Source of the DNA: an uncultured Clostridia bacterium
GTDB taxonomy: Bacteria; Bacillota; Clostridia; Christensenellales; UBA1242
Length of the DNA stretch: 64,000 nt
Direction of reading: 5' to 3'
Assembly (NCBI GenBank): GCA_947382485.1
Contig: CANCYS010000004.1
Span: 6,385 to 70,384, forward strand
Shown here: positions 18,008-54,109 of the stretch, piece after piece
Layout: every line of letters starts with the position of its first letter
Numbering within the stretch: the first letter of the stretch is position 1
Translations under genes and position numbers: made by a program
The notes under the pieces: model-generated
Seen by the model: the letters and a program-made list of their open reading frames with translations, nothing else
What the model was told of the DNA's origin: nothing
Databases searched by the model: none

Positions 18008-18035
18008 AAAAACACCAAGTAATGGTGTTTTTTTT
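18008..18035 (+). terminator. rho-independent terminator
   Basis: AACACCA-AGTAA-TGGTGTT hairpin plus T8. Confidence 0.8.
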
Positions 18036-19861: not shown

Positions 19862-20035
19862 TAATCCCTCACGGGATTCACGAAAATTAACCCCGTCCAA
19901 GCTTCAACTCCGAAGGGCAATGAAATTGCATTAGGTTTTCCCTTGTTTTCGAGAAGACCTGTTAACCGACATAAAAAAGTCTCCTTTTAAATGCGGCATC
20001 AACCCGTATCCCTTTGGTAGCCTTGCCTACCGTTT
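19862..20035 (-). promoter_or_regulatory. M-box (ykoK-type) Mg2+ riboswitch with intrinsic terminator, controlling mgtE
   Basis: The minus-strand transcript reads GGTAGGCAAGGCTACC...GGGATACGGGTTGATGCCGC...GTCGGTTAACAGG...AATGCA...GGAGTTGAAGCTTGGACGGGGTTAA. This resembles the M-box consensus as I recall it. It is followed by an AATCCC-GTGA-GGGATT hairpin plus a U-run abutting the RBS. Confidence 0.8.
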
Positions 20036-20050
20036 TTAAATACACTTATA

Positions 20051-25059: not shown

Positions 25060-25426
25060 GGGGGTGTAAGGTTTCGACAGGTGACAAGAAATGTTATCTA
25101 TAAGCGTGTGTGTGGTCCAGACCCACATAAAAATCTGGAAAAAAATAAACGCAAATAGCGATTCTTTTGCTGCAAATGCAGCAGTTGCTGCTTAGTTATT
25201 AAGCAGACCGGCAACATTTCATCGCTCACTGGTGAAGTGTTGTTGTCAAAAAATAGTGAGATGAAACAGTTTGATGTCAGTGCCTATTGTTTCGAGATTT
25301 AACTGAATTGCTTTAAGATGTTTTGTTTGTTTCAAACTTAAAGTGAAAAACAAAATAAACTGGCACACGAAGAAGGGGTAATCTTTCGTCATTTGGAAGT
25401 GGGTTCGATACCCACCACCTCCACCA
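25060..25426 (+). ncRNA. ssrA: tmRNA (SsrA)
   Basis: 5' GGGGGTGTAAGGTTTCGACAGG; 3' T-arm GTGGGTTCGATACCCAC plus CACCTCCACCA. Tag frame 25151-25195 encodes ANSDSFAANAAVAA then stop. Lies immediately after smpB. Confidence 0.92.
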
Positions 25427-39240: not shown

Positions 39241-39289
39241 TATGTAAAAAAGATTGATAAAAATAAAAAAAAGTGATAATATATAATCA

Positions 39290-39415
39290 TTCCATAAAGA
39301 GTGTGCGAGGGGCAAGCCTGTTGACCACACAGCAACCTGCAAATTTGGCAAGGTGCTAATGCTTGTATTCTATGGGCAAAGGTAAAATCATGTCCCATAG
39401 TTTATGGGATTTTTT
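39290..39415 (+). promoter_or_regulatory. SAM riboswitch (S-box / SAM-I clan) with terminator, upstream of metK
   Basis: CCATAAAGAG...GAGGGGCAAGCCTGTTGACC...GCAACC...AAGGTGCTAAT...CTATGG. Followed by a TCCCATA-GTT-TATGGGA hairpin plus a T-run, whose left arm competes with the P1 3' strand. P4 appears very short. Confidence 0.7.
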
Positions 39416-45053: not shown

Positions 45054-45104
45054 CAGTTATATCAAAAAGGTTTATTATAAATATTGAGAGAAAGTAGGTT
45101 GTTT

Positions 45105-46229
45105 ATGGAAGATATTGAAGCAAGAGAATATGTCACATTAAAGGCACTTTCTGAGAAAATCATCTCAGGAGTTTCGCCAGCGATAGCAAAAGTAACAAAG
45201 GTGATAGAAAAGTTCGTCACTGAAATTGACATGCTTGAAAAGCAACTCGAAAATTCTGTTGACATAAAAGAAATCAATAAGCTTTCAAAACAATCCCAAG
45301 AAAAAAGAGATGAACTTATCAAGTTTCTTGCAATAAAAAATAGATTAGATATGTTTGTTTCGCGAAATAAATCAAGGATAGAATATTTTAAAGAAATTTT
45401 AAAAGTTGAAGCAATTTATCAAGAAACTTTTGATAAAAAAGCATTGCAAAAACTAGAAGATAGTGAACTTGAAAACATTTCAGAACATTCATTAAATTTA
45501 AACAAAAATCAAAGCGTTCCAATGCCAAAATATGTAGCAGGAAAAATTTTGTATTTCAAAGGACAAACCTTAGATTTGTCAATCCCAGAAAATAAAGAAA
45601 TCATTTTAAGTGTAGATGCCGACTATTTAAGACAACTCATTTCAATGTTTCCAAAGTCAGTATCAACAATTTCAGCTGATGAACTTGTAAAGGTAAAGTT
45701 CAAGCAAATGCTGTTAAAAGAAATTGCGTTCTATGTTCATAGTAGGTTAAAAGATAAAGACATCAGAGAAATAAATGCAGATTTAGGTGATTTGTTAAGT
45801 TTCAGAAATGAAATAACAAACACTTTCGAAGGTTATGTTGCAGGCGTTCAAAACATGTTTAATTATATAGTTAAAAACTATGTAAAAGAAAAACTCCCTG
45901 AAAGGTTTGAAGAAATTGACAAAAAACTTAAATGTAATGAAGATTCTTCTCTCATTCCAGAGCATAGAAAGAAAATCAGTGTAGTTGTTCCAGTGATTGA
46001 AGTTGATGAAAAAATCGAGGTTGAAACTGAAATCGTTGAACCAGAGTATGAAGAAAAACAAGAAGGCACCAGAAAGTCAATGGTCAGCAAAGAACTCACC
46101 GAAATTTATGGTGGAGAAACTTCTCCAAAGAAAGAACCTGAAGAAAAAGAAGATGACGGCATGGTTGAAGGATTAAGCAAAGAAATTTTAGAACTATACG
46201 GTATTGATGTTGCTGGTGATGAGGAATAA
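45105..46229 (+). CDS. hypothetical coiled-coil protein with an acidic C-terminus
   Basis: Start taken at ATG 45105 (MEDIEAREY); the track start is TTG 45084. 374 aa. A repeated C-terminal motif (SKELTEIYGGE / SKEILELYGID). No family recognised. Confidence 0.55.
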   Translation: MEDIEAREYVTLKALSEKIISGVSPAIAKVTKVIEKFVTEIDMLEKQLENSVDIKEINKLSKQSQEKRDELIKFLAIKNRLDMFVSRNKSRIEYFKEILKVEAIYQETFDKKALQKLEDSELENISEHSLNLNKNQSVPMPKYVAGKILYFKGQTLDLSIPENKEIILSVDADYLRQLISMFPKSVSTISADELVKVKFKQMLLKEIAFYVHSRLKDKDIREINADLGDLLSFRNEITNTFEGYVAGVQNMFNYIVKNYVKEKLPERFEEIDKKLKCNEDSSLIPEHRKKISVVVPVIEVDEKIEVETEIVEPEYEEKQEGTRKSMVSKELTEIYGGETSPKKEPEEKEDDGMVEGLSKEILELYGIDVAGDEE

Positions 46230-46231
46230 AA

Positions 46232-46558
46232 ATGGAACAAGTAAAATTAGTTGAACAATTTGAAAAAGAGTATTACGCTGAGGCGTCAGAAACCAAAGTC
46301 ACGGTTGATGAACTCAAACATTTTGGGGTAAACAACAAAACTCTTTCAAGTGAAGTATATTTAATTTCCAAATTTGGAAATGAAATAGTAAAACATAATT
46401 TTGTTGATGACTTTGATGAAAATGTTGAAGGTATAGTGTCAGGTCTTGATGAAAGTGACATTATTTCCAGCAAACAGTTCACAGAAGTTTTAAATGAAAT
46501 TGAAAAATCATCGTTTGATGAAAATCTTGACACAGCGATAGGTGGAATAGAGTTGTAA
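46232..46558 (+). CDS. hypothetical acidic protein
   Basis: 108 aa. Starts 2 nt after the upstream stop; its stop overlaps the next start (TAATG). Confidence 0.5.
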   Translation: MEQVKLVEQFEKEYYAEASETKVTVDELKHFGVNNKTLSSEVYLISKFGNEIVKHNFVDDFDENVEGIVSGLDESDIISSKQFTEVLNEIEKSSFDENLDTAIGGIEL

Positions 46559-47088
46559 TGAAACAAAATTTATTGGTAGTGAGTTATGATTATGATTTGA
46601 CAAGGCAAATATCTGCAAAACTTGCAGATGAGTTTTCCATGCGAATTTTTGATCAAAGAGAACTTTTCGAGTTCGACCACATACCAAGAACATTCAGCGA
46701 CGTTGTAAAACTCAATGGAAAAGAATATGTGCAAAGAAAATATAGGTCAATTTTAAAGATGGAACTAGATTTTGATAACGCACTTTTTGTAGCCGATAGT
46801 TCGTTTGCTGAAAATTGTTTTGACCTTTTTTATAAAATAAAACTCAGCAATTTCGTTGTTTTTTTGTTTAAAGACATAAAGCAAGAAATGAAAGAAATTT
46901 CAGAAAAAAAATACAAAAACAAATTTTGTGAAGAGTTTTATAAATGTGATGAAGTCACCCTTGCAAAAAGAGAATATCTAATAAAAAATGACTGTGCCGA
47001 CATTTGCATAGATGTCAGCAATCTGTCAGAAGATGAAATTGCTGCCAAAGTAAAGTTAGAAATGATGCATTTTTACTCAGAGTATTAA
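46558..47088 (+). CDS. shikimate-kinase/P-loop-NMP-kinase-like protein lacking the Walker A motif (putative pseudokinase)
   Basis: 176 aa. LLVVSYDYDLTRQISAKLADEFSMRIFDQRELFE is collinear with the aroK N-terminus (LIGFMGSGKST.G..LA..L....D.D..IE), but GxxGxGKS is replaced by SYDYDLTR. Confidence 0.45.
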   Translation: MKQNLLVVSYDYDLTRQISAKLADEFSMRIFDQRELFEFDHIPRTFSDVVKLNGKEYVQRKYRSILKMELDFDNALFVADSSFAENCFDLFYKIKLSNFVVFLFKDIKQEMKEISEKKYKNKFCEEFYKCDEVTLAKREYLIKNDCADICIDVSNLSEDEIAAKVKLEMMHFYSEY

Positions 47089-47102
47089 TTTTCAAAAAAC
47101 AT

Positions 47103-47131
47103 TTGAGTTCATAAAAAATTCTTGTTATAAT
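47103..47131 (+). promoter_or_regulatory. sigma-70 type promoter (extended -10)
   Basis: TTGAGT (47103-47108), 17-nt spacer, TGtTATAAT (47123-47131). Confidence 0.6.
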
Positions 47132-47167
47132 ATAAGTGGTTAAAGATTTAACCAAAGGAGAATTGTT

Positions 47168-47389
47168 ATGAAACTCTATGACGCAGATTACATTATCAGA
47201 AAAAACAATGAGTATGAAGAACAGAGAATTTATAACAGTCCCGCAGAAGTCAAACTCAGAAACATGATTGCCGAAGCCACCAGACTTTGTGCCATTCAAA
47301 ATGAAAAATGTCGCTTGCAAAAAGAAAAACTTGAAGCACGAAAAAGAGAAAAGGAGATGGCAGTTGAAGCAACCAGCATGGGAATGTAA
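47168..47389 (+). CDS. hypothetical small helical protein
   Basis: 73 aa, AAAGGAG RBS, own promoter; charged coiled-coil-like C-terminal half. Confidence 0.45.
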   Translation: MKLYDADYIIRKNNEYEEQRIYNSPAEVKLRNMIAEATRLCAIQNEKCRLQKEKLEARKREKEMAVEATSMGM

Positions 47390-47441
47390 AATAAAATTCT
47401 CTTAAATACAAGGGGGATTTTTGGGCATTTTAATATAAAAC

Positions 47442-47466
47442 AAAAACACCATTTGGTGTTTTTTAT
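47442..47466. terminator. bidirectional terminator (AAACACC/GGTGTTT stem)
   Basis: AAACACC-ATTT-GGTGTTT with flanking A/T runs. Overlaps the stop of the minus gene. Confidence 0.75.
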
Positions 47467-47714
47467 TTATCATTTTTAATTAAATAACGAATAAGTTTTT
47501 TCTGTTTAATAGCAAATAATTTCTCTTGTTTTTGTTGAAACATACGAAAGGTTTTCAGTTGCACAGGATTAAGCGATTCTTCAAAAACAACTTTAACAGT
47601 TTTAGTTTGAAATTCAACTTTTTTTATGTTTTCATAGTTATCATCTGTGTTCAAAAATTCTCTGTAAGTCTTGTTTACAAAGTTTGTTCTTTCATTTGTT
47701 GTCTTAAATTTCAT
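47463..47714 (-). CDS. small hypothetical protein, module 1 (paralog of 48076-48333)
   Basis: 83 aa, AAGGAG RBS. Shares ENIKKVEF...SLNPVQLKTF...KQEKL...IRYLI with the module-2 protein. Confidence 0.6.
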   Translation of the reverse strand: MKFKTTNERTNFVNKTYREFLNTDDNYENIKKVEFQTKTVKVVFEESLNPVQLKTFRMFQQKQEKLFAIKQKKLIRYLIKNDK

Positions 47715-47741
47715 AAAAACTCCTTTGTGTATTAATTAGAT

Positions 47742-47770
47742 ATTATAATCTTACAGTTGTGAGAATGCAA
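47742..47770 (-). promoter_or_regulatory. promoter of the module-1 small gene, with an operator-like palindrome in the spacer
   Basis: On the minus strand: TTGCAT (47770-47765), 17-nt spacer, TATAAT (47747-47742). The spacer holds the imperfect 7-4-7 palindrome ATCTTAC-AGTT-GTGAGAA (47748-47765). Confidence 0.5.
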
Positions 47771-47788
47771 ATATTTATCTAACTTTTG

Positions 47789-47797
47789 TGAGATAAT
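47789..47797 (+). promoter_or_regulatory. extended -10 element (TGaGATAAT) positioned to give a leaderless XRE mRNA
   Basis: The hexamer GATAAT ends 6 nt before ATG 47804. No SD sequence lies upstream of the ATG. Confidence 0.45.
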
Positions 47798-47803
47798 TTA
47801 GTT

Positions 47804-48010
47804 ATGGAAAACAAATTTAAAGAAGTTTTTAAAAGTCTAAGGACAGAAAAGCACCTTGGTCAAGTTGAATTATCAAAAGAAATTGGAGTCAGTTCAGGAA
47901 TCATCAGCATGTGGGAAAATGGAAAAAGAGAACCAAACATGGAATCATTAATAATGATTGCAGAATATTTTGGCGTCACCATTGATTATCTTGTCGGAAG
48001 AGAAAATTAA
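47804..48010 (+). CDS. XRE-family HTH transcriptional regulator, module 1
   Basis: 68 aa. LRTEKHLGQVELSKEIGVSSGIISMWENGKREP; ends TIDYLVGREN. Confidence 0.85.
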   Translation: MENKFKEVFKSLRTEKHLGQVELSKEIGVSSGIISMWENGKREPNMESLIMIAEYFGVTIDYLVGREN

Positions 48011-48064
48011 TTTTTTTCATGGTAAAAATGCCATGAATTATAATCTTGAAAACATATAATTTTA

Positions 48065-48088
48065 GAAACACCATGCTAGGTGTTTTTA
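48065..48088. terminator. bidirectional terminator (AAACACC/GGTGTTT stem)
   Basis: AAACACC-ATGCTA-GGTGTTT plus a T-run. Overlaps the stop of the minus gene. Confidence 0.7.
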
Positions 48089-48333
48089 ATTTTATCCAAA
48101 ACAAATTCAATCAATTCTCTTTGTCTAATTTCATTCAATTTTTTTTGGTAATTACTAATTTTTTTAAACATTTCCAATTTTTCAGGTGAAAGCGAAGACA
48201 TAAGCATAATTCTAGAAATATTAATTTTGAATTCAATACTTCTCAAATTTTCAGATTTGTTCTGGTCACTATTGAACTTATCTTGAATCGAACGCACAAG
48301 TTTATTCTTTTCTTTAACTGACAAATTTTCCAT
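48076..48333 (-). CDS. small hypothetical protein, module 2 (paralog of 47463-47714)
   Basis: Start moved to ATG 48333 (MENLSVKEKN) after the AGGAGGGTG RBS; the track start 48399 would run through the promoter region. 85 aa. Confidence 0.6.
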   Translation of the reverse strand: MENLSVKEKNKLVRSIQDKFNSDQNKSENLRSIEFKINISRIMLMSSLSPEKLEMFKKISNYQKKLNEIRQRELIEFVLDKIKNT

Positions 48334-48355
48334 ACACCCTCCTAAGTTTATATTA

Positions 48356-48384
48356 ATTATATTCTTACAATAGTAAGAAAACAA
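48356..48384 (-). promoter_or_regulatory. promoter of the module-2 small gene, with a perfect palindrome in the spacer
   Basis: On the minus strand: TTGTTT (48384-48379), 17-nt spacer, TATAAT (48361-48356). The spacer holds TTCTTAC-AATA-GTAAGAA (48362-48379). Confidence 0.5.
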
Positions 48385-48402
48385 ATAAATCTCTAACATT
48401 TG

Positions 48403-48411
48403 TGAGATAAT
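48403..48411 (+). promoter_or_regulatory. extended -10 element (TGaGATAAT) positioned to give a leaderless XRE mRNA
   Basis: Same motif and the same 6-nt distance to ATG 48418 as in module 1. No SD sequence. Confidence 0.45.
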
Positions 48412-48417
48412 TTTTAT

Positions 48418-48624
48418 ATGGAAAACAAATTTAAAAATATTTTTAGAGATTTAAGAATTGAAAGAAAGATATCACAAAACAAACTTGCAGATGCCCTTAA
48501 AGTAAGCGTTGCAATCATAAGTTTCTGGGAAAATGGACTTCGTGAGCCAACTATGTATTCTTTGATAATAATTGCGGATTTCTTTGGAGTAACCATTGAT
48601 TATTTAGTTGGAAGAGAAAATTAA
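48418..48624 (+). CDS. XRE-family HTH transcriptional regulator, module 2
   Basis: 68 aa. By my count, 43 of 68 residues are identical to the module-1 regulator, including identical N- and C-termini (MENKFK..., GVTIDYLVGREN). Confidence 0.85.
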   Translation: MENKFKNIFRDLRIERKISQNKLADALKVSVAIISFWENGLREPTMYSLIIIADFFGVTIDYLVGREN

Positions 48625-48650
48625 AACACCTCAGGGTGTTTTTATTTTTA
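48623..48650 (+). terminator. rho-independent terminator
   Basis: AACACC-TCAG-GGTGTT plus a T-run. Confidence 0.75.
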
Positions 48651-48900
48651 TAGAATATCAGTTAATAAAAGTATGTGATTTATTAAATTTAAAAATAGAA
48701 GATTTTATTAATAAAGATAAATAATTTTAAAATTTATTTTTAAAAACCTGTCACACTTTGGCTCAAAACATAAAATCAAGTGTTATACTAAGTGTGAGCA
48801 CGGAGGGGTGGTTATTGCAAGAAGGAGGGTGTAAAATCGCCAACAAAAATAAAATAAATATTGATGTTATGCAATTTTTGTCAGCCAAAAAATTTCAAGT

Positions 48901-48932
48901 AAAAAATCCAAGACATATTGTCTTGGATTTTT
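48901..48932. terminator. bidirectional terminator downstream of nifJ
   Basis: A6-TCCAAGACA-TAT-TGTCTTGGA-T5, a 10-bp stem. Confidence 0.8.
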
Positions 48933-48943
48933 ATATTCTAATA

Positions 48944-51900
48944 TTATTTCTTATCAGTTTGAGATGCTTCTGAAAGTCTTTCAATAACACCTTTTGCATG
49001 TTCTTTCGCACTAGAAATAAGTTTTGTTGATTCTTCTTGGTTAACTCTTGCAAGTGTGAAATATCTAGACTGTGTACTTGTAAATTCTTCATATTCTTTG
49101 TTTGGAAGTTTTTCATCAAATGTGAGTTTACCAGTATCAGGATTATATCTGTAAATTGGCCAATAACCTGTCTCAACTGCAAGTTTTTCTTGTTGTTGTG
49201 ATTTGCTCATATCACTTCCGTGGTTAATGCAAGGGCAGTAGCAAATAACGATTGATGGGCCAACATGTTCTTTTGCTTCCTTGATTGCAGTGATAGTTGC
49301 TTGTGGATTCGCACCCATGGCAACTTGTGCAACATAAACATTTGGATATTGTCTTGCAATAGCACCAAGGTCTTTCTTTTGAGTTTTCTTACCAGATGCA
49401 GCAAACTTAGCGACAGAACCTTTTGGAGTAGCCTTTGAAGCCTGACCACCAGTGTTAGAGTAAACTTCTGTGTCAAGAACTAAAATGTTCACATCTTCAC
49501 CAGTTGCAAGCACATGGTCAAGACCACCGTAGTCAATATCATAAGCCCAACCATCACCACCAATAATCCAAACAGAGTTTTCAAATAAACTTGAAACAAG
49601 TGAATAGATTGCTTTTGTGGTTTCATCATTTTTATTGTTGTTATAAAGATTTGTAATAGTTTGTTTAATTTCAAGAGCAAGTGTTTTTTCTTTCTTTTCT
49701 TGTGAAAGCCAAGTTTCAAGTTTAGAGGTTAATGAACCATCAAAAACTTTGTTTTGCACTGCACTTTCAATAATCTTTGTTAAATGTTTTCTGTTGTTGT
49801 CAACTGCCTTTTTCATACCAAGTCCAAATTCTGCGTTGTCTTCAAACAAACTGTTTGACCAAGCAGGTCCAAAGCCGTCTTTTGACTTTGTGTAAGGGCA
49901 GGTAGGTGCAGTTCCAGAGTAAATGCTTGAACAACCTGTTGCGTTTGCAACAATCATTTCTTCGCCATAAAGTTGAGTTAAAAGTTTAATGTATGGTGTT
50001 TCACCACATCCAGCGCAAGCACCAGAAAATTCAAATAAAGGTTTTTCAAATTGGCTACCTTTAATAGTTTCTTTTTTAAAGATTGTTGGAACATTTTCAA
50101 CGTCTTTAAGTTTTTCATAAAGTTTGTCTTCTTCATCCAAAATATCTTCTGCTTTCACCATTTCAAGAGCCTTTTGAACTGCTGGACAAACATGAACGCA
50201 GTTTTCACAGCCAGTGCAATCTCTTGGAGAAATTTGAATTTTAAATGAATATCCAGGAACTCCAAGTGCAGGGATTGCACCAACAGCTTTTGCAAGTTCA
50301 CTGTCTGTTTTAACAAGGTATGGACGAATAACAGCGTGTGGGCAAACAAGAGAGCATTGGTTGCATTGAATGCAGTGTTCTTTAATCCATTTAGGAAGCA
50401 TTGTTGCAATATTTCTCTTTTCATATTTGCTTGTTCCAGTGTGAGATGAACCAGTAACTTCAAAACTTGAAACAGGAAGTTCGTTTCCAAGTTTAAGTTC
50501 AATTGGACGAATGTAATCTTTGTAATATGGGTCATCAATAGGATTAAATTCAGGCTCGCTGATTGCATCTGCCCAAGTTTTTGGATAATTCACTTCTCTA
50601 AGTTCTTTTAAAGAACTGTCGATTGCAGTGATGTTCATTTGAACAACCTTTTCACCTTTGCTTGCATAAGTTTTTGCAGCAGCAGTTTTAATGTGTGAAA
50701 TTGCTGTATCAACATCTAAAATTTTAGAAAGTGCAAAGAATGCGGTTTGCATAACAACATTAATTCTTCTGTTCAAACCAACTTGCTCAGCAACTTTTTC
50801 TGCATCAATAATGAAAAATTTAAGTTTCTTTTTAGCAATAAATCTTTTCATTGAAGCAGGAAGATTGTTGTTTAGTTCTTCATCAGTCCAAGGAGCGTTC
50901 AAAAGGAATGTACCACCATTCTTGATTGAACTAAGCATATCATATTTTGAAACATAACTTTTATTGTGGCAAGCAACAAAATCAGGGTGATTTGTTAAAT
51001 ATGGAGCATTGATAGGATTTTTAGACATTCTAAGATGGCTGATTGTAAGTCCACCAGATTTTTTGCTGTCGTAAACAAAATAACCTTGTCCGTAAAGTCC
51101 AGCATATTCGCTGATAATTTTTATGCTGTTTTTGTTAGCAGAAACTGTTCCGTCACTGCCAAGACCATAAAATCTGCATTCAACTGTGTTTTCGTCATCA
51201 AAGTCAAGTTTAAGTTTGTTTGATGGAAGGGAAGTTTTTGTAACATCGTCAACAATTCCAACAGTGAAATGATTTTTAGGTTTTTCAAGATTTGAATTTT
51301 CATAAATTGAAATAACATGTTCATGAGTAAACTCTTTGCAAGAAAGACCATATCTTCCACCAATCACACGAATACCAGTTATACCTTCTTCGTTTAAAGC
51401 TGAAATAACATCTTGTGCAAGAGGTTCATAAGTTGCACCACATTCTTTTGTTCTGTCAAGAACAGAAATAATTTTTGTAGTCTTTGGAAGTGCAGACACA
51501 AAATGTTTAACGCTAAATGGTCTGTAAAGACGAACTTTAATTGCACCAACCTTGTGTCCGTTTTGTGCCATTTTTTCAACTGCTTGTACAACAGTATCAG
51601 CACCAGAACCCATAGCCACAATAACACTAGTAGCATCAGATGCACCATAATATTCAAATAATTTGTATTTTCTACCAGTTGCTTTTGCAACATCTGCTAA
51701 AACTTTTTCAAAATATTTAGGAACAGCATCAATATATTTGTTGATTGCTTCTCTGTTTTGGAAGAAGATGTCTTCGCCTTGGCTAGTTCCTTTTTGAATT
51801 GGATTAGAAGGTGTGAATTCATTTGTTCTTTCATAAATGTTGCCTTGTGCTTCTGCAAGTGCTTTTACAGTAAAATCTTCAATAGGTGTTATTGTGTTAA

Positions 51901-53332: not shown

Positions 53333-53461
53333 AATAACATTAAGTTTACTAAAAAATAGTAAACTTTTTATTTTGCAACCAATAGTTGCGTAAATTCCAA
53401 CTAGAATAGGTTGTTTTTGCGAAGAATGAAATTATATAATAATAGCATAAAGGAGATGTTT

Positions 53462-54109
53462 ATGGATATTAAAGTGGCAAACCGTTTGCAAGAGTTAAGA
53501 AAGAAAAACGGATATTCACAAGAAGACCTTGCAGATGAGCTTGGTGTTTCAAGACAAGCCGTTTCAAAATGGGAAAGAGGAGATGCCTCGCCAGACACAG
53601 ACAATTTAATTGCTCTTTCAAAAATTTATAATGTAACTTTGGATGAACTAATTAATGGTGAAGATGAATATAAAGTAAATGAAAATGATTATGTAAATTT
53701 TAAAAAAGAAGAAAATTCAAAAAATTTAAAGTCAGAAGATGATGACGACGATGACGATGATGATAAAAATTTGACACCAGTTCAAAAATTAACAATAACA
53801 ATCGCTAGTTGCGTTTCAGTAATCATTGCTTTGACTGCATATTTAATTCTTGGATTGTGTTTCAATTTGTGGCATCCATCATGGATAGTGTTTATGCTCA
53901 TACCTTTTGTAAGTTCTCTTGCTGATGCAATTGTAAAGAAAAATCCATCACATTTTGCATATCCAGTTTTGGTTGTAGTAATATATTTAATTGTTGGATT
54001 TCTCACAAATTTATGGCATCCATGCTGGGCAATTTTCTTAACAATACCAATTTATTACATAATAATTGATGTTTCAAAAGATGTAAAAAAAATAAAAACT
54101 AAAAAATAA
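53462..54109 (+). CDS. membrane-bound XRE-family HTH regulator (HTH + poly-Asp linker + 4-TM domain with a repeated NLWHPxW motif)
   Basis: Start moved to ATG 53462 after the AAGGAG RBS. HTH YSQEDLADELGVSRQAVSKWERG, D10 linker, then two repeats of two TM segments each. Confidence 0.75.
   Translation: MDIKVANRLQELRKKNGYSQEDLADELGVSRQAVSKWERGDASPDTDNLIALSKIYNVTLDELINGEDEYKVNENDYVNFKKEENSKNLKSEDDDDDDDDDKNLTPVQKLTITIASCVSVIIALTAYLILGLCFNLWHPSWIVFMLIPFVSSLADAIVKKNPSHFAYPVLVVVIYLIVGFLTNLWHPCWAIFLTIPIYYIIIDVSKDVKKIKTKK

What the first reader, a model, noticed from the sequence alone, without database searches (positions are those of the whole stretch)
47442..48650. Tandemly duplicated divergent module: small unknown protein (-) plus 68-aa XRE regulator (+)
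Two consecutive copies of the same architecture occur at 47442-48088 and 48065-48650. Each runs terminator, small gene on the minus strand (83/85 aa, strong RBS), roughly 85-nt divergent control region, 68-aa XRE HTH gene on the plus strand, terminator. By my hand count the XRE proteins share 43/68 identical residues, differing mainly in the helix 2-3 region. The small proteins are clearly but distantly related (ENIKKVEF..SLNPVQLKTF..KQEKL..IRYLI versus ENLRSIEF..SLSPEKLEMF..YQKKL..IEFVL). All three bounding terminators use the same AAACACC/GGTGTTT stem, consistent with an old duplication of the whole unit. No phage, integrase or toxin-like genes are adjacent. It therefore does not look like a standard prophage immunity region or a recognised toxin-antitoxin family. 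It may be an uncharacterised repressor/small-effector switch that has diversified into two specificities.
Basis: seen in the sequence. Interest (0 to 1): 0.65.

Follow-up and report, generated by a model that had tools for sequence, protein, structure and literature searches.

The report
Duplicated XRE repressor cassette, orphan cargo
Two neighbouring copies of a small repressor gene, each facing a tiny gene of unknown function across a shared control region, belong to a wider, undescribed family of repressor-plus-operator cassettes in uncultured low-GC bacteria. The arrangement is tidy and real but mechanistically conventional.

Summary
Two tandem units (47442-48088 and 48062-48642) each carry a terminator, a minus-strand small gene (83 or 85 aa), an 84-89 nt control region, a 68-aa XRE gene and a terminator.

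New here: each control region holds two 16-bp palindromes (TCTnAC-N4-GTnAGA) 29 bp apart. O1 fills the spacer of a near-consensus promoter for the small gene. O2 overlaps an extended -10 placed so that the XRE mRNA should be leaderless.

The same XRE subfamily (at least 56% identity), operators and spacing recur in 19 instances on unrelated chromosomal metagenome contigs. The facing gene differs there: small membrane proteins, lipoproteins, a bPH_2 protein or other small helical proteins.

None of the close subfamily was found on phage, viral or plasmid sequence. Both window modules use the same half-sites, so cross-repression is likelier than two specificities.

The 83/85-aa proteins are near-orphans, with three clusters among 1.84 billion representatives. 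They are predicted as three long helices and match no family or fold.

A related contig has one module plus a third XRE gene that survives in the window only as a 3' remnant.

Best reading: an autoregulated XRE off-switch, duplicated in place, with lineage-specific cargo of unknown activity. It is not a toxin-antitoxin system or a prophage remnant.

The parts
47442..47463 (.). Terminator T1, bidirectional hairpin AAAAACACC-ATTT-GGTGTTTTT. It ends small gene 1 and the upstream plus-strand operon.
47463..47714 (-). Small gene 1: 83 aa, pI 9.9, predicted as three long helices, AAAGGAG ribosome-binding site.
47742..47771 (-). Promoter of small gene 1: -35 TTTGCA (47771-47766), 18-nt spacer, -10 TATAAT (47747-47742).
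47749..47764 (.). Operator O1 of module 1, TCTTACAGTTGTGAGA. It lies inside the spacer of the small-gene promoter.
47778..47793 (.). Operator O2 of module 1, TCTAACTTTTGTGAGA. It lies 29 bp from O1 and overlaps the XRE promoter.
47789..47797 (+). Extended -10 (TGaGATAAT) of the XRE1 promoter. The ATG follows 6 nt after it with no Shine-Dalgarno sequence, so a leaderless mRNA is inferred.
   Evidence: sequence; family alignment
47804..48010 (+). XRE1: 68 aa, HTH_3 domain only.
48062..48089 (.). Terminator T2. It is shared by XRE1 and small gene 2 and overlaps the last codons of small gene 2.
48076..48333 (-). Small gene 2: 85 aa, pI 9.7, predicted as three long helices, GGAGG ribosome-binding site.
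48356..48384 (-). Promoter of small gene 2: -35 TTGTTT (48384-48379), 17-nt spacer, -10 TATAAT (48361-48356).
   Evidence: sequence; alignment
48363..48378 (.). Operator O1 of module 2, TCTTACAATAGTAAGA.
48392..48407 (.). Operator O2 of module 2, TCTAACATTTGTGAGA.
48403..48411 (+). Extended -10 (TGaGATAAT) of the XRE2 promoter. The ATG follows 6 nt after it with no Shine-Dalgarno sequence.
   Evidence: sequence
48418..48624 (+). XRE2: 68 aa, HTH_3 domain only. Its recognition helix reads SVAIISF where the family consensus is SKGIISM.
48623..48642 (.). Terminator T3.
48664..48724 (+). 3' remnant (...KVCDLLNLKIEDFINKDK*) of a third XRE gene. That gene is 67 aa, of HTH_26 type, and intact in the related contig L184. 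About 195 bp, including its promoter and 5' two-thirds, is missing in the window.

Best explanation
Each module is a self-contained transcriptional off-switch of the Cro/CI (XRE) type.

Proposed mechanism:
1. The 68-aa XRE protein is only a helix-turn-helix domain. As a dimer it binds two 16-bp palindromes, TCT(T/A)AC-N4-GT(A/G)AGA, set 29 bp apart.
2. O1 occupies the 17-18-nt spacer of a near-consensus sigma-A promoter that drives the facing small gene. That gene also has a strong ribosome-binding site. Bound XRE would exclude RNA polymerase and keep the small gene off.
3. O2 overlaps the extended -10 (TGaGATAAT) of the XRE gene's own promoter. The ATG sits at the expected transcription start, so the XRE mRNA is leaderless. 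XRE therefore also limits its own synthesis.
4. The two modules arose by duplication in place of one ancestral unit and keep the same operator half-sites. XRE1 and XRE2 most likely repress both small genes, giving a redundant, cross-wired pair rather than two orthogonal switches.
5. The 83/85-aa products are the cargo. They are soluble, lysine-rich, three-helix proteins restricted to this lineage. They most likely act by binding another macromolecule. Their activity is unknown, and nothing suggests a toxin.

What is shown: gene structures, operators and their enrichment, promoter geometry, conservation of XRE, operators and spacing across 19 cassette instances with unrelated cargo, absence of the close subfamily from the viral, phage and plasmid collections searched, and the orphan status and helical prediction of the small proteins.

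What is inferred: that XRE binds these operators, the direction of regulation, the leaderless start, cross-repression, and what the cargo does.
For: - Operators: 4 of 4 matches in 64 kb lie in the two control regions, against 0.02 expected.
- Specificity of the link to XRE: every 67-68-aa XRE at least 56% identical to XRE1 that directly faces a cargo gene has both operators at the same distance from its ATG (in L021 O2 is degenerate, GTTTAC). No XRE below that identity has them, nor does any of 80 viral loci. This ties the operators to this XRE subfamily.
- O1 sits between TTGACT-like and TATAAT hexamers on the cargo strand in all aligned cassettes (the scan found TTTGCA-18-TATAAT).
- O2's right half is always GTGAGA and supplies the TG of an extended -10. 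The O2-to-ATG gap is 10 nt in 13 of 19 cassettes, and no Shine-Dalgarno sequence is present.
- Cargo is unrelated between cassettes: 63-85-aa helical proteins, 99-127-aa membrane proteins, zinc-ribbon membrane proteins, lipoproteins and a bPH_2 protein.
- Contexts are chromosomal: rplA-rplJ, pgk-tpi, beside spo0A, beside sigF, beside PFOR.
- Duplication in place: L184 has one module between the same flanks. L011 aligns to the right end of module 2 and the left end of module 1. Both window modules share the derived TCTAAC in O2.
- Small proteins: only 3 clusters found among 5.8 and 1.84 billion proteins. AlphaFold pLDDT is 82-83 with three helices.
Against: - No binding, transcript or expression data exist; the regulation is read entirely from sequence.
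- The 29-bp centre-to-centre spacing is about 2.8 helical turns, so the two sites are out of phase for simple cooperative binding.
- A 68-aa HTH-only repressor has no sensor domain, so what relieves repression is unexplained.
- XRE1 and XRE2 are only 63% identical. Each is closer to XREs from other loci (74-75%) than to the other copy. The duplication is therefore old, or the copies diverged quickly. XRE2's recognition helix departs from the family consensus, so partial divergence in specificity cannot be excluded.
- XREs that face small helical proteins form a sub-clade with the C-terminus ...FGVTIDYLVGRE. This could reflect a functional pairing that the 'mere cargo' view ignores.
- The operator core TACAnnTGTA is also the CopY/BlaI box core (PMC7253601, found), so a different repressor is conceivable.
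Confidence: 0.55

Rival explanations
1. Repressor/anti-repressor toggle. The small helical protein binds the XRE (or its DNA complex) and inactivates it. XRE represses its own antagonist, and each module is a bistable positive-feedback switch, working like SinR/SinI or the TP901-1 CI/MOR pair.
For: - Small, all-helical, non-HTH proteins are the partner in at least 7 cassettes: window x2, L184, L012, L018, L021, L186.
- Their XREs form a sub-clade.
- The two small-protein families align over their C-terminal two helices with weak profile similarity (P 0.0025).
- XRE1 is acidic (pI 5.3) and the small proteins are basic (pI 9.4-9.9).
Against: - Equally close XREs with the same operators face membrane proteins and lipoproteins, so XRE needs no such partner.
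- The 68-aa XRE lacks any SinR-type oligomerisation domain, and no SinI (PF08671) hit appeared at E up to 1.
- pTM of 0.43-0.52 says the fold is uncertain.
- Basic pI is common in a 32% GC genome.
- Homology between the two small families is unproven (probability 12%).
Confidence: 0.15
2. Toxin-antitoxin or abortive-infection-like pair. The small protein is a growth inhibitor held silent by the XRE and released when XRE is lost or inactivated, for example by phage infection.
For: - XRE proteins are common antitoxins; weak NCBIfam similarity to HipB, Y4mF and PezA HTH domains.
- The cargo promoter is strong and tightly operator-controlled.
- Many cargoes in sister cassettes are small membrane proteins, a frequent effector type.
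Against: - The genes are divergent, each with its own terminator, not a co-transcribed pair.
- XRE has no neutralising extension beyond the HTH.
- No toxin, Abi or PADLOC family match for any cargo.
- Some cargoes are lipoproteins.
- The locus is fixed and identical across 10 contigs. No defence genes were recognised among the neighbours examined.
Confidence: 0.08
3. Decayed prophage or mobile-element immunity region (a CI/Cro-like switch) left in the chromosome.
For: - Divergent promoters with shared operators and a leaderless repressor mRNA are classic phage-switch features.
- The closest solved relative is the P22 C2 N-terminal domain (E 3e-6).
- phrog_8 and phrog_4 repressor profiles hit the XREs.
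- The locus shows XRE gene gain and loss between relatives.
Against: - The partner is not an HTH protein.
- No phage, integrase or recombinase genes lie within 10 kb on either side.
- The cassette signature gave 0 hits in 2.9 million viral contigs.
- The best viral, phage or plasmid XRE is at most 58% identical and lacks the operators.
- Sister cassettes sit between core genes in different genomes.
Confidence: 0.07
4. The small protein is itself a nucleic-acid-binding co-regulator, a functional Cro analogue with a non-HTH fold. It acts on the shared control region or on other targets.
For: Net charge is +5 to +8.5. The best, though insignificant, Foldseek match is an HMG box. It sits opposite a repressor, as Cro does.
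Against: No DNA-binding family or fold match. The helices are long (16-32 residues), unlike compact DNA-binding motifs. No third conserved repeat in the control region is left unassigned.
Confidence: 0.08

Closest known systems
Lambdoid CI/Cro-type immunity switches (P22 C2, 434 cI/Cro, lambda cI from PRM)
   Same: An XRE/Cro-CI HTH repressor. Palindromic 16-bp operators placed in back-to-back divergent promoters. Autoregulation. A leaderless repressor mRNA, as for lambda cI from PRM (my own knowledge). The P22 C2 N-terminal domain is the best solved relative.
   Different: The repressor is HTH-only, with no C-terminal oligomerisation or cleavage domain. The facing gene is not an HTH protein. 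There are two operators rather than three. There is no phage context, and the cargo varies between cassettes.
Controller (C) proteins of restriction-modification systems (C.PvuII, C.AhdI, C.Esp1396I)
   Same: A roughly 70-80-aa HTH-only XRE protein. A pair of palindromic boxes in front of its own gene. Leaderless C mRNA and autoregulation (my own knowledge). PADLOC 'control protein' profiles hit weakly (E 1e-4).
   Different: No restriction or methylase gene is adjacent. The operators are 29 bp apart rather than abutting. One operator sits in a divergent promoter's spacer, implying repression of cargo rather than timed activation. The sequence consensus differs.
SinR/SinI (and SlrR/SlrA) of Bacillus subtilis
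   Same: An XRE repressor next to a small all-helical protein of about 60-85 aa. A possible antagonist logic.
   Different: SinR has a C-terminal helical-hook domain shared with SinI; the 68-aa XREs here have none. No PF08671 hit. The genes are divergent rather than tandem. The same XRE subfamily also pairs with membrane proteins.
Type II toxin-antitoxin systems with XRE antitoxins (HigA, HipB, PezA, MqsA)
   Same: A small XRE DNA-binding protein that autoregulates through palindromes, next to a small gene.
   Different: Not an operon. No toxin family. No neutralisation domain. The cargo is heterogeneous and includes lipoproteins.
TP901-1 CI/MOR switch
   Same: Divergent promoters, with a repressor facing a roughly 70-aa modulator that acts by binding the repressor (my own knowledge).
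   Different: MOR is itself an HTH-type fold and CI is 180 aa. That system lies in a phage. No sequence or fold similarity was found here.

Membership tests
XRE / Cro-CI HTH family (Pfam HTH_3, PF01381) | HTH_3 domain above the Pfam gathering score | tested here: met
   57.1 and 57.3 bits against a cutoff of 23 for XRE1 and XRE2.
'MENKFK-type' XRE cassette (defined here, not a published family) | A 67-68-aa XRE at least 56% identical to the subfamily, with the conserved helix 3 and turn VSKGIISMWENGLREP | tested here: met
   XRE1 is 62-74% identical to 47 database homologues. XRE2 is 63-75% identical. XRE2 departs from consensus at SVA and F.
'MENKFK-type' XRE cassette (defined here, not a published family) | Two TCTnAC-N4-GTnAGA palindromes 29 bp apart. 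O1 starts about 55 nt and O2 about 26 nt before the XRE ATG. A divergent gene lies 78-100 nt away. | tested here: met
   Both window modules and 17 further cassette instances.
Type II toxin-antitoxin system | Toxin and antitoxin co-transcribed as an operon | tested here: not met
   The genes are divergent, each with its own promoter and terminator.
Type II toxin-antitoxin system | The partner belongs to a toxin family | tested here: not met
   No Pfam, NCBIfam, PHROG or PADLOC hit for the 83/85-aa proteins.
Type II toxin-antitoxin system | Growth inhibition by the partner, neutralised by the XRE protein | not testable with these tools
   Needs expression experiments.
Phage CI/Cro immunity region | Two divergent HTH regulators competing for shared operators | tested here: not met
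   The small proteins have no HTH domain. AlphaFold predicts three long helices.
Phage CI/Cro immunity region | Located in a prophage or other mobile element | tested here: not met
   Neighbours are core or unknown genes. The cassette pattern is absent from viral contigs. No phage or plasmid XRE reaches 60% identity.
SinR/SinI-type repressor-antagonist pair | Shared helical-hook (SinI, PF08671) domain in both proteins | tested here: not met
   No PF08671 hit at E up to 1. The XRE is 68 aa, with HTH_3 matched over residues 10-63 and no C-terminal extension.
SinR/SinI-type repressor-antagonist pair | Physical interaction of the small protein with the repressor | not testable with these tools
Needs a pull-down or AlphaFold-Multimer.
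Restriction-modification controller (C) protein | Adjacent restriction endonuclease or methyltransferase genes under its control | tested here: not met
   None within the window region 41-56 kb.
Restriction-modification controller (C) protein | Paired palindromic boxes upstream of its own, leaderless, gene | tested here: inconclusive
   Two palindromes and a leaderless geometry are present. Their spacing and sequence differ from C-boxes, and there are no transcript data.

The most novel reading that the evidence does not exclude
The MENKFK-type XRE, its two operators and the divergent promoter form a portable, sensor-less tight-off cassette. A clade of uncultured low-GC Firmicutes would use it many times per genome to hold lineage-specific envelope and small-protein genes silent. 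All copies would respond to one shared signal, because they share operators. In the sub-clade that includes this window, the facing three-helix proteins would be fast-evolving anti-repressors that give the regulon a bistable, self-amplifying trigger. The tandem pair would then be a two-input version of that trigger.
Probability: 0.1. Interest if true: 0.65.

Novelty: new variant of a known kind. Interest (0 to 1): 0.35.

Why it matters
In itself this is a conventional XRE repressor-operator module, so the biological surprise is modest. Three aspects have some value:

- It defines a sharply delimited XRE subfamily whose protein, operator sequence, operator spacing and leaderless promoter geometry stay together across unrelated loci. 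This gives a ready-made operator model for predicting regulons in uncultured gut and rumen Firmicutes, and a compact repressible promoter part.
- It shows that the same switch is wired to very different, mostly unannotated, small envelope or helical proteins. That raises the question of what common signal relieves a repressor that has no sensor domain.
- It flags two near-orphan families of 55-85-aa helical proteins that consistently sit opposite one XRE sub-clade. These are candidates for small protein regulators.

If the small proteins prove to be anti-repressors, the tandem pair would be a natural two-node toggle.

Tried and rejected
Searches on the small proteins:
- Pfam, PHROGs, NCBIfam and PADLOC: nothing above noise.
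- PDB sequence profile: E 0.31 only.
- Foldseek against PDB and BFVD: no match below E 5.
- tblastn against GenBank phages: no match.

My own early idea that the C-terminal half is a ribbon-helix-helix was rejected. AlphaFold models of both paralogues are all-helical with no strand, and no RHH family hit appeared.

Collection scans:
- Two scans of genome contigs, one with the small-protein alignment and one with PFOR as anchor, found nothing. What is known: GC is 32.3%; SAM-I and M-box riboswitches are present; contigs carrying other members of the XRE subfamily carry spo0A and sigF; and one family member is labelled 'MAG: Clostridia bacterium'.
- The gapped DNA signature returned 0 hits in metagenome contigs. 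It does match loci that came from JGI samples, so that negative is unreliable. The protein-based scan replaced it.

Other tests:
- Homology between the window's small family and the 13-member family next to sister XREs: hhalign P 0.016, then 0.011, then 0.0025 as the alignment deepened, with probability at most 12%. I treat this as a lead, not a result.
- Literature searches by motif, peptide strings and keywords found no description of this family. They surfaced only the CopY 'TACAnnTGTA' box. I judge that coincidental, because the invariant outer TCT...AGA and the window's TCTAAC O2 fall outside that box.
- Rfam at a permissive threshold found nothing in 47350-49000 apart from a sub-threshold chance hit.
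- Strain polymorphism was too low to say anything about selection: 3 SNPs in 10 contigs.
Full report
**1. What is in the sequence**

- Small gene 1 (47463-47714, minus strand) encodes 83 aa behind AAAGGAG.
- XRE1 (47804-48010, plus strand) encodes 68 aa.
- Small gene 2 (48076-48333, minus strand) encodes 85 aa behind GGAGG.
- XRE2 (48418-48624, plus strand) encodes 68 aa.

The longer 107-aa reading of small gene 2 runs through its own promoter. No gene caller used it on ten related contigs.

The two XREs share 43/68 residues. The two small proteins share 32% identity over 59 residues, E 2e-10.

Three hairpin-plus-T-run terminators bound the units at 47442-63, 48062-89 and 48623-42 (five sites against 0.5 expected). 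All three use the AAACACC/GGTGTTT stem. That stem also occurs at 18010, so it is a common terminator stem in this 32% GC genome and weak evidence of ancestry by itself.

The arrangement is fixed. Ten contigs from different samples are 99.85-100% identical over 1.36 kb.

**2. The control regions**

Each 84-89-nt intergenic region carries two 16-bp palindromes of the form TCTnAC-N4-GTnAGA, 29 bp apart: 47749, 47778, 48363 and 48392. These are the only four matches in the 64-kb window, against 0.02 expected.

On the minus strand, O1 lies exactly in the spacer of a good sigma-70-type promoter.
- Module 1: TTTGCA-18-TATAAT, found by the scan.
- Module 2: TTGTTT-17-TATAAT, read.

On the plus strand, the right half of O2 (GTGAGA) supplies the TG of an extended -10, TGaGATAAT. 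The XRE ATG begins six bases after that hexamer. No Shine-Dalgarno sequence precedes it.

The geometry therefore predicts three things: XRE binding at O1 blocks the small-gene promoter; binding at O2 blocks the XRE promoter; and the XRE mRNA is leaderless. All three are inferences from sequence.

**3. The XRE and its operators are a conserved unit with variable cargo**

XRE1 has 47 database homologues of 67-72 aa at 62-74% identity. I looked up their genomic contexts and scanned metagenome contigs with the family alignment. A script then checked every XRE relative in 187 loci.

- Wherever a 67-68-aa XRE at least 56% identical to XRE1 directly faces a cargo gene, both operators are present, 29 bp apart and at the same distance from the ATG. 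L021 has a degenerate O2. There are 19 instances counting the two here, and the O2-to-ATG gap is exactly 10 nt in 13 of them.
- No XRE below that identity has the operators.
- The aligned control regions read ATTATA-n-TCTTACAnTTGTAAGA-agTCAAGtATTTT-TCTTACnnTTGTGAGA-(t/a)AAT...ATG. This is a TATAAT and a TTGACT on the cargo strand bracketing O1, and an extended -10 fused to O2 on the XRE strand.

The facing genes are unrelated to one another:
- 63-85-aa helical proteins;
- a 100-aa soluble protein;
- 99-127-aa membrane proteins;
- zinc-ribbon membrane proteins of 107-108 and 251 aa;
- lipoproteins of 130 and 270 aa;
- a 196-aa bPH_2 membrane protein;
- a 286-aa membrane and coiled-coil protein.

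Almost none has a Pfam or PADLOC match.

The cassettes sit between core genes: rplA-rplJ, pgk-tpi, next to spo0A, next to spoIIAA-AB-sigF, and here next to PFOR.

None of this subfamily was found in mobile-element collections.
- The DNA signature has no hit in 2.9 million viral contigs.
- The best viral relative is 58% identical, 116 aa long and lacks the operators.
- All GenBank phage and PLSDB plasmid relatives are below 60% identity.

**4. The small proteins**

A profile of the two paralogues found only themselves among 5.8 billion clustered proteins. It found one further cluster (P0005, E 5e-15) among 1.84 billion representatives read in full by HMMER.

They match no family in Pfam, PHROGs, NCBIfam or PADLOC. 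They match no PDB sequence and no phage record.

AlphaFold models of both paralogues are confident per residue (pLDDT 82 and 83) but not globally (pTM 0.52 and 0.43). Both show three long helices at about residues 6-21, 24-47 and 50-82. My initial ribbon-helix-helix idea is therefore rejected. Foldseek found no analogue in PDB or BFVD.

The proteins are basic, with pI 9.4-9.9. In a 32% GC genome this is weak evidence for nucleic-acid binding.

A second family of small helical proteins (55-72 aa, 13 clusters, no annotation) faces the XRE in four sister cassettes: L012, L018, L021 and L186. Its C-terminal two helices align with those of the window family at hhalign P 0.0025, probability 12%. This is suggestive, not proven.

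The XREs that face either small helical family share a C-terminus (...FGVTIDYLVGRE). This distinguishes them from the XREs that face membrane cargo (...VSIDYLVGLE). The small-helical-plus-XRE pairing may therefore be an old, co-inherited sub-lineage.

**5. History of the locus**

Contig L184, from a relative, has the same left flank (the 108-, 176- and 74-aa genes and a terminator). It then has one small gene (80 aa, the P0005 family), the standard O1/O2 region and one XRE that is 75% identical to XRE2. Next come a terminator and a third, different XRE gene (67 aa, HTH_26 type), followed by the conserved element that precedes PFOR in the window.

The window keeps only the last roughly 19 codons of that third gene, at 48664-48724. 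About 195 bp have been deleted.

L011, from a near-identical relative of L184, has yet another XRE gene (MKFETFGLNV...) inserted between the small gene and the MENKFK-type XRE. The insertion replaces the O1/O2 region.

L011 aligns to the right end of module 2 (83%) and to the left end of module 1 (77.5%).

Both window modules share a derived O2 (TCTAAC) not seen in any other cassette.

Together these points support duplication in place of one ancestral module.

The duplication is old, or the copies diverged fast. XRE1 and XRE2 are 63% identical, yet each is 74-75% identical to XREs elsewhere, and the small genes no longer align at the DNA level.

**6.

Correct:
- There are two tandem repressor/small-gene modules.
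- The system is neither a known toxin-antitoxin family nor a prophage remnant.
- The small proteins are uncharacterised.

Not supported:
- Diversification into two specificities. The four operators share half-sites with each other and with the whole subfamily. XRE2's altered recognition helix (SVAIISF against SKGIISM) leaves room for quantitative differences only.

Missed:
- The operators.
- The leaderless geometry.
- The fact that the conserved unit is XRE plus control region, with the small protein being just one of many cargoes.

**7. Mechanism and rivals**

| Reading | Confidence |
|---|---|
| Autoregulated XRE off-switch, duplicated and cross-wired, holding a lineage-specific small helical protein silent | about 0.55 |
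| Repressor/anti-repressor toggle | 0.15 |
| Silent toxin or abortive-infection effector | 0.08 |
| Non-HTH nucleic-acid-binding co-regulator | 0.08 |
| Decayed phage switch | 0.07 |

Main gaps:
- There is no sensor on a 68-aa repressor, so the inducing signal is unknown.
- The 29-bp operator spacing is out of helical phase.
- There are no experimental data.

**8. Comparison with known systems, and verdict**

It works like a lambdoid CI/Cro operator-promoter arrangement. In its HTH-only size, paired boxes and leaderless mRNA it also resembles a restriction-modification controller protein. It fails the defining context features of both, and it fails the defining features of SinR/SinI and of type II toxin-antitoxin systems (see the membership table).

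I file it as a new variant of a known kind. It is a real, well-delimited but undescribed XRE cassette family whose cargo here is a near-orphan protein family. Interest is moderate to low (0.35).

Noticed in passing
window 48664-48724 (+): 3' remnant (...KVCDLLNLKIEDFINKDK*) of a third XRE gene. The gene is 67 aa, of HTH_26 type, and intact in the relative L184 (2194-2397). About 195 bp, including its promoter and first ~47 codons, are deleted in the window. The deletion ends lie at short CAAT-like repeats.
   Followed up: yes
window ~48745-48830 (+), between module 2 and the PFOR terminator: A promoter-like TTGGCT-17-TGTTATACT followed by a GGAGG-rich segment (GTGTGAGCACGGAGGGGTGG...AAGGAGGG). 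It is conserved in L011 and L184. There is no convincing ORF and no Rfam match. It could be a small RNA or a leader.
   Followed up: partly
L007 1756-8164 (JGI 3300006145) against window 47443 leftwards: This contig is 99.6% identical to the window across PFOR's 3' end and both modules. Directly after the left terminator it continues into unrelated genes (a WG_beta_rep protein, a 693-aa pilin-like protein, Smr, PfkB). This is either a strain-level rearrangement at the terminator or a chimeric assembly.
   Followed up: partly
L011 95-582 against L184 1814-2102: Two near-identical relatives have XREs one residue apart and the same small protein. They differ by insertion of an extra XRE gene (MKFETFGLNV...) between the small gene and the MENKFK-type XRE. 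The insertion replaces the O1/O2 region and changes the small protein's N-terminus. The same extra XRE type accompanies the cassette in L018 and L021.
   Followed up: partly
window 45084-47389 (+): A four-gene operon (381, 108, 176 and 73 aa) has no Pfam, PHROG, NCBIfam or PADLOC match. The 108-, 176- and 74-aa genes (plus a truncated ORF upstream) are conserved next to the module in relative L184, and the operon is absent from the L007 variant.
   Followed up: partly
L012, L018, L021 (between rplA and rplJ); L023 (between pgk and tpi): Sister cassettes are inserted inside otherwise universally conserved gene strings: the rplKA-rplJL cluster and the pgk-tpi glycolytic pair. These positions may be tolerated insertion points for small accessory modules in this clade.
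   Followed up: no
window 53411-54109 (+): A 215-232-aa XRE protein with a hydrophobic, Trp-rich C-terminal half lies between truA and rplM. NCBIfam gives a weak sub-threshold hit to a WxxxWxxW domain. It is probably a membrane-anchored one-component regulator. Only its HTH resembles the 201-aa XRE next to the cassette in L018.
   Followed up: partly
window 25060-25426 (+), 19882-20041 (-), 39289-39378 (+): A tmRNA, an M-box (Mg) riboswitch and a SAM-I riboswitch upstream of metK. These support a Firmicutes-type host.
   Followed up: no
operators at window 47749, 48363 and family-wide: The O1 core TACAnnTGTA is identical to the CopY/BlaI/MecI 'cop box' core (PMC7253601). I judge this coincidental, because the outer TCT...AGA bases are invariant and the window's O2 sites lack TACA. 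Binding by a winged-helix repressor was not excluded.
   Followed up: partly
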